A DNA stretch of 55,048 bases from a virus (taxonomy: Duplodnaviria; Heunggongvirae; Uroviricota; Caudoviricetes). The DNA is taken from positions 1 to 55,048 of the IMG/VR virus record IMGVR_UViG_2541047910_000003. The stretch is one strand, 5' to 3'. The notes below the pieces were generated by a model. It did not search any database, was not told where the DNA came from, and saw only the letters and a list, made by a program, of their open reading frames with translations. The translations under genes and the position numbers were made by a program. How positions within the stretch are numbered: position 1 is the first letter of the stretch; every line of letters starts with the position of its first letter. Shown piece after piece: positions 17,956-19,518 of this stretch.

Positions 17956-18210
17956 ATGGCTAGAGACGATCCGCACTTTAACTTCCGTATGCCTTTGGAA
18001 GTAAGAGAAAAATTGAAATTAAGAGCAGAGGCTAACGGAAGGTCAATGAACTCTGAGTTATTACAAATCGTTCAGGATGCTCTCTCAAAGCCATCATCAA
18101 TTGTAGGCTATCGAGACGAAGCTGAGCGAGTCGCGGATGAGCAATCTGACGTTGTTAAGAAGATGGTCTTTGAAACGCTGAAAAATATTTATAGCAAAAG
18201 TAAGTTATAG
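17956..18210 (+). CDS. mnt: Mnt repressor (RHH)
   Basis: MARDDPHFNFRMPLEVREKLKLRAEANGRSMNSELLQIVQDALSKP matches P22 Mnt. Confidence 0.85.
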   Translation: MARDDPHFNFRMPLEVREKLKLRAEANGRSMNSELLQIVQDALSKPSSIVGYRDEAERVADEQSDVVKKMVFETLKNIYSKSKL

Positions 18211-18259
18211 GCTTATGACGTACAGTTAACCATATCGATATTGGCTCGCGTGATGACAA

Positions 18260-18979
18260 ATGAAAAAAAGCAATGGACTCACATTAAAACTTGACGGAAC
18301 CACCCCTGGCCAGCTGTCAATGGCTAAGTTGGTCAAGTATATGTCTGCTCTCGTAGATCTATACGGTTCTGCAGATTCTGTTCACTTCGACTGTGTAAGT
18401 GAAGGATCGGCTGACTTAAATGCATGGGTCGATAATGATATTTGTTATAACGCTGTCATAGCAAGGGCCTCTCTCTCAGCCAAAGAGAAATCACCCGCGT
18501 ATCAAAAAATTGTTAATTTACTGGAACATGATGGTTTTTCAGCGAAACTACTCGGACGAAACCACTCAACCATTATCGCATTCCCGCGAGTAAAAAAGGA
18601 GCCAATCCCTTTACTCATAACAAAAACATCAGAAGTTCAAGGAAGGCTATACAGTGTTGGCGGAAAAGACAATTCAATACCTGTGCGTATTGAGGGAGCC
18701 AACGGCGAAACATTCAAGTGCGAGGCAACCCCTGATTTGGCGGCAGCTCTTGGGTCCCATCTATTCAAATATATTAGGGTTAAAGGAGATGGGTGCTGGG
18801 AAAAAAAGAACAACAAATGGGAGCTAAAGAAACTAAAAATAACTTCATTTGTATTGCTCAAAAAATCATCACTCAAGGATGCTATTAATGCTATCAAGCA
18901 AGTTCCTGGAGATCAGTGGTCCGAGGAACGCGATGTTGATTCAATCCTTAGGACTCTGAGGAAGATAAATTGCGAGTAA
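18260..18979 (+). CDS. Hypothetical 239-aa protein, first gene of AT-rich two-gene cassette downstream of mnt
   Basis: ORF; stop overlaps start of PIN gene by 10 nt; no recognisable domain. Confidence 0.5.
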   Translation: MKKSNGLTLKLDGTTPGQLSMAKLVKYMSALVDLYGSADSVHFDCVSEGSADLNAWVDNDICYNAVIARASLSAKEKSPAYQKIVNLLEHDGFSAKLLGRNHSTIIAFPRVKKEPIPLLITKTSEVQGRLYSVGGKDNSIPVRIEGANGETFKCEATPDLAAALGSHLFKYIRVKGDGCWEKKNNKWELKKLKITSFVLLKKSSLKDAINAIKQVPGDQWSEERDVDSILRTLRKINCE

Positions 18980-19518
18980 TTTTAGATACCAATATTCTGG
19001 TATACCTACTATCAGATATAGAACACGATTATAGATTATCTGACCCTATACTTGGTTCTGAGATTCCAGATGCCAAAAGAAGAGCAGAAGCTCTTGTTGA
19101 TCGAATAGATAACAAGAACGGGACAATCATCGTTCCAACTCCTGTATTGGCGGAGTTTTTAGTTGGAATCCATAAAGATTACCAACAAGAAAAACTGAAT
19201 GTTATCAAATCGTTATCGTGCTTCGAAACTGTATCGTTTGATGAGTTGGCTGCTATTGAATGCGCATCGATACCAACATTAAAAGAATTAAGGAAAATTA
19301 GCACAGAAGGTACAGCAAACAAAATTAAGTTTGACAGACAAATAATAGCAATTGCAAGAGCAATTAATGCTGACGAGGTATGGACTCATGATAAGGGAGT
19401 GTTTGAGCGTTGCAAAAGTCTCAATATTCCTGTGTTCACATTATCATCAATAGAACCAATTCCGGTTCAAAGTCTCATGGAGTTCTTACACGATTCAGAC
19501 GATCAGAGATTACACTAA
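18970..19518 (+). CDS. PIN-domain (VapC-like) putative nuclease, TTG start, translationally coupled to upstream gene
   Basis: N-terminal RVILDTNIL with conserved Asp; further acidic residues at expected PIN positions (AEALVD, FDRQ, THDKG); gaggaag SD 5 nt upstream of TTG. Confidence 0.65.
   Translation: MRVILDTNILVYLLSDIEHDYRLSDPILGSEIPDAKRRAEALVDRIDNKNGTIIVPTPVLAEFLVGIHKDYQQEKLNVIKSLSCFETVSFDELAAIECASIPTLKELRKISTEGTANKIKFDRQIIAIARAINADEVWTHDKGVFERCKSLNIPVFTLSSIEPIPVQSLMEFLHDSDDQRLH

What the first reader, a model, noticed from the sequence alone, without database searches (positions are those of the whole stretch)
17956..19518. Candidate novel two-gene PIN-nuclease module in the P22-like ImmI/sieA hotspot
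Immediately downstream of mnt and co-oriented with it lies an AT-rich pair. The first is a 239-aa protein with no recognisable domain (18260-18979). The second is a 182-aa PIN-domain protein (18970-19518) that starts on TTG, with its SD inside the upstream gene and a 10-nt overlap, indicating translational coupling. This position (between gene 16 and the ImmI genes) is where P22-like phages carry sieA/hkcC-type superinfection-exclusion morons. It is repressor-associated and therefore expressed in the lysogen. A PIN RNase coupled to an unknown partner in this context could be a prophage-encoded anti-phage (abortive infection or toxin-antitoxin-like) system. It does not match any named defence system I can recall.
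Basis: partly seen in the sequence, partly recalled or inferred. Interest (0 to 1): 0.8.

Follow-up and report, generated by a model that had tools for sequence, protein, structure and literature searches.

The report
Prophage PIN nuclease with OB-fold partner
A P22-like prophage of E. coli carries, directly behind its Mnt repressor gene, a conserved two-gene cassette (an uncharacterised OB-fold protein plus a VapC-like PIN nuclease) that is widespread in temperate phages and defence islands and is most likely an untested anti-phage or toxin-antitoxin-like system.

Summary
A 182-aa PIN ORF (18970-19518) starts on TTG, overlaps the first ORF by 10 nt and has its SD inside it. The PIN keeps all four catalytic acidic residues (D6, E62, D122, D141), and its model best matches VapC toxins. 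The partner matches no Pfam, NCBIfam or PADLOC model. Its predicted structure is an unknown N-terminal domain, a basic SSB-like OB fold and a C-terminal helical tail.

The two genes are effectively always together: 16/16 genome loci, 41/41 partner-seeded viral contigs and 63/64 PIN-seeded viral contigs. The junction is tight, and the weak TTG/GTG start is conserved from E. coli to Pseudomonas phages.

In temperate phages the pair sits directly behind the lysogeny repressor (Mnt, CI-S24 or short HTH) in at least 24 of 40 viral contigs. That is the sieA/rexAB slot. Outside prophages it lies near SoFic, ShosTA, type I R-M and Mrr genes.

It is unrelated to the validated PIN system DS-5. The PIN is already listed, untested, as a "predicted novel defense gene" by DefensePredictor.

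Verdict: a real, uncharacterised, probably defensive module whose function is inferred, not shown.

The parts
17900..17933 (.). Overlapping divergent Pmnt (+) and Pant (-) promoters with the Mnt and Arc operators. This is the presumed source of transcription into the module.
   Evidence: Promoter scan: + strand 17900-17928 matches 10/12, - strand 17933-17905 matches 11/12. Alignment to the annotated P22 control region is nearly base-for-base identical.
17956..18210 (+). mnt (ImmI maintenance repressor), the first gene of the transcription unit. It provides context and is not a module-specific component.
   Evidence: Pfam Arc E 6e-27 and Repressor_Mnt E 5e-13. About 85% DNA identity to P22 mnt. 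Homology to P22 ends near its stop codon.
18260..18979 (+). Partner protein, 239 aa. It has an N-terminal alpha/beta domain of unknown fold (about 1-112), a basic SSB-like OB fold (about 116-200) and a C-terminal two-helix tail (about 205-235).
18958..18964 (+). Shine-Dalgarno-like GAGGAAG for the PIN gene, inside the partner's 3' end.
   Evidence: Read directly from the sequence. An equivalent AGGGG/GAGGA motif is conserved at the junction in other loci.
18970..19518 (+). VapC-like PIN-domain nuclease, 182 aa, with a TTG start and a 10-nt overlap with the partner gene.
   Evidence: PF01850 E 4e-10. Invariant D6, E62, D122, D141 across 46 homologues. AF2 model pLDDT 85. Best Foldseek PDB matches are VapC toxins (3zvk, 5ecw, 4chg) at E about 1e-5 and target TM about 0.7. 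TTG or GTG start in 28 of 31 locus entries.
19527..19570 (+). Stable hairpin that closes the cassette 3' of the PIN gene. It may act as a terminator or an RNA-stabilising element, but it has no U-tract.
   Evidence: RNA fold dG -19.6 kcal/mol, z = -5.7, 0 of 200 shuffles fold as well. It is conserved 16 nt after the PIN stop in the E. coli copies, including L001, which lacks the downstream ORF161.

Best explanation
This is a mobile two-gene cassette carried as lysogen-expressed cargo by temperate phages, and it most likely acts as an anti-phage (abortive-infection or superinfection-exclusion) module. In this prophage it is transcribed from Pmnt together with mnt. The partner is translated first. 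The PIN is translated by coupling from a deliberately weak TTG start, so it is never made without, or in excess of, its partner. The two proteins form a complex in which the partner keeps the VapC-like Mg2+-dependent nuclease inactive. The likely contacts are the partner's basic OB domain and/or its flexible C-terminal tail against the acidic PIN active-site face. An infection cue releases or redirects the PIN. Candidate cues are a phage nucleic-acid intermediate or a protein recognised by the OB or N-terminal domain, or loss of the partner. The freed PIN then cleaves RNA, most likely tRNA or rRNA as VapC does, halting translation and aborting the infection. What is shown: gene structure, intact catalytic residues, the folds, near-obligate pairing, the conserved coupled weak start, placement behind repressors, and defence-gene neighbours. 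What is inferred: co-transcription with mnt, complex formation, inhibition by the partner, the trigger, the RNA substrate and the defence phenotype.
For: (1) The nuclease looks active: PF01850, four invariant acidic residues and a VapC-like fold. (2) The pair is tightly linked. The PIN is adjacent to the partner in 16/16 genome loci and 41/41 viral contigs. The partner lies upstream of the PIN in 63/64 PIN-seeded viral contigs, with the exception at a contig end. This holds down to Binatia and Marinobacterium relatives. (3) The junction is always tight, from a 3-nt gap to a 14-nt overlap. The PIN start is TTG in 26 and GTG in 2 of 31 locus entries. ATG appears only in the two most distant members and in a decayed copy, L017, whose partner is frameshifted and whose PIN is truncated with D6 changed to Y. 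This fits an effector whose dosage must stay subordinate to its partner. (4) Placement is behind the lysogeny repressor in unrelated immunity regions: Mnt in E. coli and S. salamae P22-likes, CI-S24 in Pseudomonas prophages and in the isolated phages Ostro and Pacha, CI-S24 in Halomonas and Pantoea, and a short HTH_3 repressor in an Enterobacter Rac-like prophage. In bulk, at least 24 of 40 nearest upstream genes in IMG/VR are Mnt or HTH_3/S24 repressors. This is the slot of sieA in P22 and, from general knowledge, of rexAB in lambda. (5) The Pmnt control region is nearly identical to P22, and there is no terminator or significant structure between mnt and the pair. (6) Of 11 copies outside prophages, 6 lie within about 5 kb of known or candidate defence genes: SoFic three times, type I R-M twice, ShosA, a Fic protein matching PDC-S04, and an Mrr-type nuclease. 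Others are in primase-type mobile elements. (7) Distribution is patchy (33 of 5426 E. coli genomes) and GC is low. (8) An independent machine-learning model lists this exact PIN (WP_001263856.1) as a predicted novel defence gene, mean log-odds 6.8.
Against: There is no experimental evidence of defence, toxicity, complex formation or nuclease activity for any family member that I could find. The partner lacks the small DNA-binding antitoxin architecture of classical VapB and looks like a stable, well-folded protein, so simple 'labile antitoxin' logic may not apply. In the only validated two-protein PIN system I could read about (DS-5), the partner is needed for defence and its deletion is not toxic, so the inhibitor role assumed here may be wrong. 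About half of the copies outside prophages have no defence gene nearby. Co-transcription from Pmnt is inferred from sequence only.
Confidence: 0.55

Rival explanations
1. The pair is a sensor/adaptor plus effector system that is not a toxin-antitoxin pair. The PIN is inert on its own, and the OB-fold partner is a positive factor that recognises the phage cue or recruits the RNA or ssDNA substrate. The result is still anti-phage defence, but with DS-5-like logic.
Against: The partner-first gene order, the coupled and conserved weak TTG start of the PIN, and the joint decay of both genes in L017 with an active-site D-to-Y change are what is expected when the downstream protein is dangerous. DS-5 is not homologous to this pair, so the analogy carries little weight.
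Confidence: 0.2
2. The pair is a selfish addiction (post-segregational killing) toxin-antitoxin module. It stabilises the prophage or genomic islet and has no role in phage defence.
For: [quoted passage not shown] The layout is bicistronic with the partner first and overlapping. The pair occurs on mobile elements and as isolated islets between housekeeping genes.
Against: The scores are far below the curated VapC cut-offs: 27 bits against 140, and 20 against 74. The partner has no RHH, AbrB, Phd or HTH module and is larger than the toxin. The strong bias for the repressor-downstream moron slot and the neighbouring SoFic, ShosTA and R-M genes point to defence. Addiction and defence are also not mutually exclusive.
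Confidence: 0.15
3. The pair serves the phage's own life cycle. For example, it could be an RNA-processing nuclease that tunes immunity-region transcripts (ant, arc, sar) or the lysis-lysogeny switch, or a counter-defence nuclease.
For: It is embedded in regulatory regions next to repressors, and in this window next to the sar antisense RNA system. PIN nucleases do process specific RNAs.
Against: The same cassette follows three unrelated repressor families with different regulatory circuits. It also occurs with no phage at all, in chromosomal islets and defence islands. It is absent from most P22-like prophages: only 33 of the 212 E. coli genomes with an mnt-region match carry it. It is therefore dispensable cargo and not part of the switch.
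Confidence: 0.07

Closest known systems
VapBC type II toxin-antitoxin systems (VapC PIN toxins, e.g. Shigella/Salmonella VapC, Rickettsia VapC2, M. tuberculosis VapCs)
   Same: The PIN fold has the four conserved acidic residues, and VapC toxins are the best structural matches. The operon is bicistronic, with the partner gene first and overlapping the toxin gene. NCBI applies the VapC label to many homologues.
   Different: The upstream protein is not a VapB. At 239 aa it is larger than the toxin, has no RHH, AbrB, Phd or HTH DNA-binding domain and is built around an OB fold. The PIN has an insertion of about 20 aa after the first helix and a C-terminal extension of about 30 aa. It scores far below the curated VapC family cut-offs. 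Profile searches find no PDB sequence relative.
DS-5 (DefensePredictor; WP_021513008 + WP_021513009), a validated two-protein PIN defence system of E. coli
   Same: It is a two-gene operon with a small or medium protein of unknown function followed by a PIN nuclease. It comes from the E. coli accessory genome, and defence depends on the PIN catalytic residues.
   Different: There is no detectable homology. The partner comparison gives hhalign probability 0.1%, and the PIN comparison gives 3.7%, covering the first strand motif only. The DS-5 partner is 166 aa with DUF5830 and an AcrIF4-like domain, and the DS-5 PIN is 376 aa.
P22 SieA / orf59a (ImmI-adjacent superinfection exclusion) and lambda RexAB (cI-adjacent exclusion)
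   Same: The genomic slot and logic are the same: cargo directly downstream of a lysogeny-maintenance repressor, between mnt and gene 16 in P22-like phages or after cI in lambdoid phages.
   Different: There is no sequence similarity to any protein of the 50,697 phage records apart from the Ostro and Pacha homologues. SieA and RexB are membrane proteins that block DNA entry or depolarise the cell (general knowledge; SieA paper PMC10883804). This pair is made of soluble proteins and includes a nuclease.
SSB/PriB/RPA/MCM-N OB-fold nucleic-acid-binding domains
   Different: There is no sequence-family membership: no Pfam SSB hit and sequence identity of only 7-20% in the superpositions. The domain is flanked by an unknown N-terminal domain and a helical tail, and no SSB-type acidic C-terminal tip is evident.

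Membership tests
PIN-domain nucleases (Pfam PF01850 / VapC-like fold) | Profile match above the curated threshold | tested here: met
   PF01850 E 4.1e-10, 40.8 bits against a cut-off of 23.6.
PIN-domain nucleases (Pfam PF01850 / VapC-like fold) | Four conserved acidic active-site residues | tested here: met
   D6, E62, D122 and D141 are invariant in 46 homologues.
PIN-domain nucleases (Pfam PF01850 / VapC-like fold) | Rossmann-like alpha/beta/alpha PIN fold | tested here: met
   AF2 model pLDDT 84.6. Top 30 Foldseek PDB hits are PIN/VapC proteins with probability 1.00.
PIN-domain nucleases (Pfam PF01850 / VapC-like fold) | Mg2+/Mn2+-dependent nuclease activity | not testable with these tools
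   Requires a biochemical assay.
VapBC type II toxin-antitoxin system | Curated VapC family score (NCBIfam equivalog or subfamily models) | tested here: not met
   NF047863 27.1 bits against a cut-off of 140; TIGR00028 19.9 against 73.6; NF047959 14.8 against 80.
VapBC type II toxin-antitoxin system | Upstream small antitoxin with an RHH, AbrB, Phd/YefM or HTH DNA-binding domain | tested here: not met
   The partner is 239 aa with no Pfam or NCBIfam hit at E <= 1. Its structure is an unknown N-terminal domain, an OB fold and a helical tail.
VapBC type II toxin-antitoxin system | Bicistronic operon with the antitoxin first and translational coupling | tested here: met
   10-nt overlap with the SD inside the upstream gene. 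A tight junction is conserved in all loci.
VapBC type II toxin-antitoxin system | Toxin arrests growth and the cognate antitoxin neutralises it by direct binding | not testable with these tools
   Needs toxicity and rescue assays.
DS-5 (DefensePredictor PIN system) | Partner homologous to WP_021513008 (DUF5830 / AcrIF4-like) | tested here: not met
   hhalign probability 0.13%; no DUF5830 hit in the Pfam scan.
DS-5 (DefensePredictor PIN system) | PIN protein homologous to WP_021513009 (376 aa) | tested here: not met
   hhalign probability 3.7%, 12 aligned columns only.
Known or candidate defence systems in PADLOC-DB v2.0.0 | Any component matching a PADLOC model | tested here: not met
   0 families at E <= 1 for mnt, the partner, the PIN and ORF161. 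Newer DefenseFinder or PADLOC releases were not available.
P22 SieA/orf59a or other phage exclusion proteins | Sequence homology to proteins of sequenced phages at this slot | tested here: not met
   tblastn of the partner against 50,697 phage records hits only Pseudomonas phages Ostro and Pacha. The PIN hits nothing. DNA homology to P22 ends near the mnt stop codon.
P22 SieA/orf59a or other phage exclusion proteins | Location between mnt and gene 16, co-oriented with mnt | tested here: met
   Window layout compared with the annotated P22 layout.
SSB-type OB-fold ssDNA-binding proteins | OB-fold five-stranded barrel | tested here: met
SSB-type OB-fold ssDNA-binding proteins | Sequence-family membership (Pfam SSB and related families) | tested here: not met
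   No Pfam hit. A profile search against PDB sequences finds no SSB.
SSB-type OB-fold ssDNA-binding proteins | Binds single-stranded nucleic acid | not testable with these tools
   Only indirect evidence: the domain is basic (median pI 9.0) with invariant Y131, F169, W180, W187, K122, K136, R173 and K191.

The most novel reading that the evidence does not exclude
The partner is a new kind of infection sensor. An SSB-like OB domain, joined to an N-terminal domain of unknown fold, detects a phage replication or recombination intermediate (ssDNA or RNA) or a phage protein. It both cages and licenses a VapC-like RNase. This would define a new, widespread two-gene anti-phage family (more than 1,500 sequence clusters) that temperate phages of at least four immunity types co-express with their repressors, as a functional analogue of RexAB or SieA that works through RNA cleavage.
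Probability: 0.3. Interest if true: 0.7.

Novelty: new variant of a known kind. Interest (0 to 1): 0.55.

Why it matters
If confirmed, this would add a widespread and so far unnamed two-gene system to the anti-phage repertoire. The partner family is large (1569 cluster representatives in the exhaustive search), has no Pfam model and has no characterised member that I could find. Its OB-fold architecture differs from every VapB-type antitoxin, so it could reveal a new way of controlling or triggering a PIN nuclease. The repeated insertion directly behind Mnt, CI-S24 and short HTH repressors gives a clean natural example of an interchangeable cargo slot downstream of the repressor gene across unrelated temperate phages. 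That rule could be used to mine for more lysogen-expressed defence genes. In practical terms, about 0.6% of complete E. coli genomes, many of them clinical isolates, carry this exact cassette, which could affect phage-therapy host range. The kind of thing it is, a PIN-based TA-like or Abi module on a prophage, is well precedented, and the PIN has already been flagged by a machine-learning predictor. That limits how surprising it is.

Tried and rejected
(1) Identity with DS-5 was tested with the published sequences and rejected.

(2) The window is not the P22-like prophage Gally of E. coli LF82, whose mnt-side genes are induced in macrophages. The published mnt-deletion primer arms do not match. 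That paper therefore gives indirect context only.

(3) I looked for a third conserved component. The small ORFs upstream of the copies outside prophages share no similarity with each other or with Mnt, so the module has two genes.

(4) ORF161 is not a SieA homologue. It is an independent moron, present in some loci and absent in others.

(5) I suspected the partner was disrupted in phage Pacha_bin_1, which would have implied a non-toxic PIN. The gene is intact and the split is an annotation artefact.

(6) Profile searches of both families against all PDB sequences found nothing useful. The partner's hits were short Kelch-like GG motifs, which I take to be spurious.

(7) Foldseek against AFDB50 was unavailable. 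The BFVD search gave only generic OB/SSB hits. The fold of the partner's N-terminal domain remains unidentified.

(8) Ten literature searches, including searches for the RefSeq accessions, found no characterisation of either protein. The NetFlax TA-network paper, the Photorhabdus TA paper, the SieA paper and two discovery papers were read and contain nothing on this pair. Brenes & Laub 2025 could not be opened.

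Full report
**Observation**

The window is an E. coli chromosomal segment carrying a P22-like prophage. The prophage integrase (52430-53590) abuts tRNA-Thr(CGT) (53605-53680) and an aldehyde-dehydrogenase-family gene that I take to be proA. This is the classical P22 thrW attachment site.

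The ImmI region is fully P22-type. It contains:
- ant (16502-17425, minus strand; P22_AR_N/C domains);
- the sar antisense RNA (17427-17493; Rfam 77.7 bits);
- arc (17707-17928, minus strand);
- overlapping divergent Pant/Pmnt promoters at 17900-17933;
- mnt (17956-18210, plus strand; Arc and Repressor_Mnt domains).

After a 49-nt spacer comes a 239-aa ORF (18260-18979). A 182-aa ORF (18970-19518) follows, starting on TTG and overlapping the first ORF by 10 nt, with GAGGAAG 5 nt upstream inside the first gene. RefSeq annotates the same two CDS in 33 of 5426 complete E. coli genomes at 99% identity or more. The region is 36-44% GC, against 48-50% in genes 16 and 20.

**The two proteins**

The downstream protein is a PIN nuclease.
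- It matches PF01850 at E 4e-10, above the gathering score.
- D6, E62, D122 and D141 are invariant in an alignment of 46 homologues down to 29% identity.
- Its AF2 model (pLDDT 85) is most similar to VapC toxins: Rickettsia VapC2, Shigella and Salmonella VapC, and several M. tuberculosis VapCs, at E about 1e-5 and target TM about 0.7.
- It falls far below the curated NCBIfam VapC cut-offs, and a profile search finds no PDB sequence relative.

The upstream protein matches nothing in Pfam, NCBIfam or PADLOC. Its only match is a PHROG of unknown function.
- Its AF2 model (pLDDT 84) has three parts: an N-terminal alpha/beta domain (1-112), a beta-barrel (116-200) and two C-terminal helices modelled at lower confidence.
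- The OB domain is the most conserved part of the protein. It carries the invariant core QGRLYSVGGKD..PV..EG..GE...CE plus F169, R173, W180, W187 and K191.
- The OB domain is basic throughout the family (median pI 9.0), whereas the PIN is acidic (median pI 5.2).
- The fold of the N-terminal domain was not identified.

**A conserved, near-obligate pair**

The partner family is large. An exhaustive profile search finds 1569 cluster representatives at E <= 1e-3 and 296 at E <= 1e-30, nearly all stand-alone proteins of 235-260 aa. Pairing was tested in both directions:
- In one-genome-per-species contigs, all 16 full-length partner loci have the PIN immediately downstream.
- In IMG/VR, 41 of 41 partner-seeded loci have the PIN adjacent.
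- In IMG/VR, 63 of 64 PIN-seeded loci have the partner upstream, and the single exception has the PIN at the end of its contig.
- The pairing persists at about 28-35% PIN identity, in Marinobacterium and Binatia.
- It also holds in the isolated temperate Pseudomonas phages Ostro and Pacha_bin_1, where hhalign probabilities are 99.9% for the partner and 99.2% for the PIN.

The junction is always tight, from a 3-nt gap to a 14-nt overlap. The PIN start is TTG in 26 and GTG in 2 of 31 locus entries. ATG appears only in the two most distant members and in one decayed copy, L017. In L017 the partner is frameshifted and the PIN is truncated with its catalytic D6 replaced by Y. A conserved weak, coupled start for the nuclease, together with joint decay of both genes, is what is expected if the nuclease is harmful without its partner. 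No third gene is conserved.

**Genomic context**

In P22 the order is 9 - ant - sar - arc - Pant/Pmnt - mnt - orf59a - t_mnt - PsieA - sieA - 16. The window's operator and promoter region and its mnt gene align almost base-for-base with P22, and the homology stops near the mnt stop codon. The pair is therefore a cargo swap in the orf59a/sieA slot. There is no terminator-like site or significant RNA structure between mnt and the partner. A strong hairpin (19527-19570; dG -19.6 kcal/mol, z -5.7) follows the PIN and travels with the cassette in the other E. coli copies. This fits a unit of Pmnt - mnt - partner - PIN - hairpin. That Pmnt is active in lysogens comes from established P22 biology and from the record's own annotation of mnt as the maintenance repressor. 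I did not measure it here.

The same cassette follows other, unrelated repressors:
- CI-type S24 repressors in Pseudomonas prophages and in phages Ostro and Pacha;
- CI-type S24 repressors in Halomonas, Pantoea latae and further Pseudomonas species;
- a short HTH_3 repressor, divergent from cro/ydaS-ydaT, in an Enterobacter Rac-like prophage;
- Mnt in Salmonella salamae P22-like prophages.

In bulk, the 40 nearest upstream genes in IMG/VR contigs comprise 9 Mnt, 15 HTH_3 repressors (11 with the S24 domain) and 4 DinI-like proteins. This is the slot of sieA in P22 and, from general knowledge, of rexAB in lambda.

Outside prophages, 6 of 11 loci lie within about 5 kb of known or candidate defence genes:
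- full-length SoFic in three loci, two of which also carry type I R-M hsdM/hsdS;
- ShosA of the ShosTA system about 1 kb downstream in Hafnia;
- a Fic-domain protein matching PDC-S04 in Pectobacterium;
- an Mrr-type nuclease directly upstream in Marinobacterium.

Two of the SoFic loci (L008 and L014) are syntenic, so these are not all independent events. Other copies sit in primase-type mobile elements or next to IS elements.

**Comparison with what is known**

PADLOC v2 has no model for either protein. DefensePredictor (Science 2026, PMC13092281) validated DS-5, a two-protein PIN system in which the partner is required for defence and is not an antitoxin. Using the published DS-5 sequences, I found no homology to either protein of this pair. 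The same paper's Table S10 lists this exact PIN, WP_001263856.1, among "uncharacterized clusters". It is marked as predicted defensive, with mean log-odds 6.8 and no hit to any known defence protein. That is an independent computational prediction with no experiment behind it. Ten full-text searches found no characterisation of either protein. Brenes & Laub 2025, which DefensePredictor cites as having validated a PIN domain in E. coli prophage defence, is not in the library. I cannot exclude that this pair or a homologue was tested there.

**Mechanism**

My best-supported reading (confidence about 0.55) is a lysogen-expressed abortive-infection or exclusion module.
- The partner is made first.
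- The PIN is made by coupling from a weak start.
- The two proteins form a complex in which the VapC-like nuclease is held inactive.
- An infection cue sensed through the partner, or loss of the partner, frees the PIN to cut RNA (tRNA or rRNA, by analogy with VapC) and halt translation.

The gene structure, catalytic residues, folds, pairing, coupled weak start and contexts are shown. Co-transcription, complex formation, inhibition, the trigger, the substrate and the phenotype are inferred.

The rivals are:
- a DS-5-like sensor/adaptor plus effector that is not a TA pair (0.2);
- a pure addiction TA module (0.15);
- a role in the phage's own regulation or in counter-defence (0.07). This is disfavoured because the cassette is dispensable cargo that follows unrelated repressors and also occurs without any phage.

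**Novelty and verdict**

The pair is real, conserved and uncharacterised. It is a new variant of a known kind: a PIN-based, TA-like or defence module on mobile elements, with a new OB-fold partner family and a striking rule of placement behind the repressor gene. Its novelty is limited in three ways. PIN-based defence and TA systems are well precedented. The family is already catalogued in PHROGs. The PIN has already been flagged by a machine-learning predictor. I score interest at 0.55. The experiments listed under next steps, chiefly phage challenge, catalytic mutants and PIN-alone toxicity, would settle the question quickly.

Noticed in passing
window 19583-20068 (+); likely true start GTG 19646 with SD AAGGAGG at 19634-19640: A 140/161-aa ORF sits exactly in the sieA slot, ending 25 nt before the convergent gene-16 stop. 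It has no similarity to SieA and no Pfam, PHROG, PADLOC or NCBIfam hit. A 96%-identical copy follows the PIN in one S. salamae prophage (L027), but the ORF is absent from L001, L025 and L026. It is an independent moron of unknown function.
   Followed up: partly
window 37348-37423 (-) and 37429-37503 (-): The prophage carries its own tRNA-Thr(UGU) and tRNA-Asn(GUU) genes. A VapC-like PIN, a type known to cut tRNA, in the same prophage makes it worth asking whether phage-borne tRNAs relate to tRNA-targeting nucleases. I did not test this.
   Followed up: no
window 17489-17710 (-): A 73-aa ORF lies between arc and ant, overlapping the 3' end of the sar RNA region. RefSeq annotates it as hypothetical in L001, and it is present in S. 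salamae L026. It has no significant family hit, and P22 has no gene there.
   Followed up: no
window 1-13000 (e.g. 1558-2892 +, 2974-3687 -, 5858-6886 -, 12143-12682 +): Left of the tailspike lies a second mobile element or remnant. It has a DUF6538-type tyrosine integrase, a Dit-like tail protein, a capsid-E-like protein and a serine resolvase/invertase. A DUF6538 protein also neighbours the distant Marinobacterium copy of the module (L036).
   Followed up: partly
L002 and L005 (Pantoea latae NZ_MWUE01000022.1, copies about 12 kb apart): One contig carries two diverged copies of the pair, 70% and 57% identical to the query partner. One follows a phage tail-tip J gene and the other follows a CI-S24 repressor, so these look like two adjacent prophages each with its own copy.
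   Followed up: partly
L007, L008, L010, L014 (marine gammaproteobacterial stand-alone copies), about 7-13 nt upstream of the partner ATG: A TATAAT/TATACT box lies almost directly upstream of the partner start codon. This suggests a leaderless or very short-leader mRNA for stand-alone copies. Enterobacterial stand-alone copies (L004, L006, L023) share a TTGACGC...ATGAA promoter-like element instead.
   Followed up: no
L017 (Halomonas MAG, about 5950-6884): This is a decayed copy. The partner is split across two frames, and the PIN is truncated to about 60 aa with the catalytic Asp replaced by Tyr and an ATG start. It is the only clear pseudogene pair I saw.
   Followed up: partly
L050-L053 (IMG/VR contigs): In four viral contigs the gene directly upstream of the pair is a DinI-like protein (Pfam E 2e-23) rather than a repressor. 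That links the cassette to another SOS- or lysogeny-associated cargo position.
   Followed up: no
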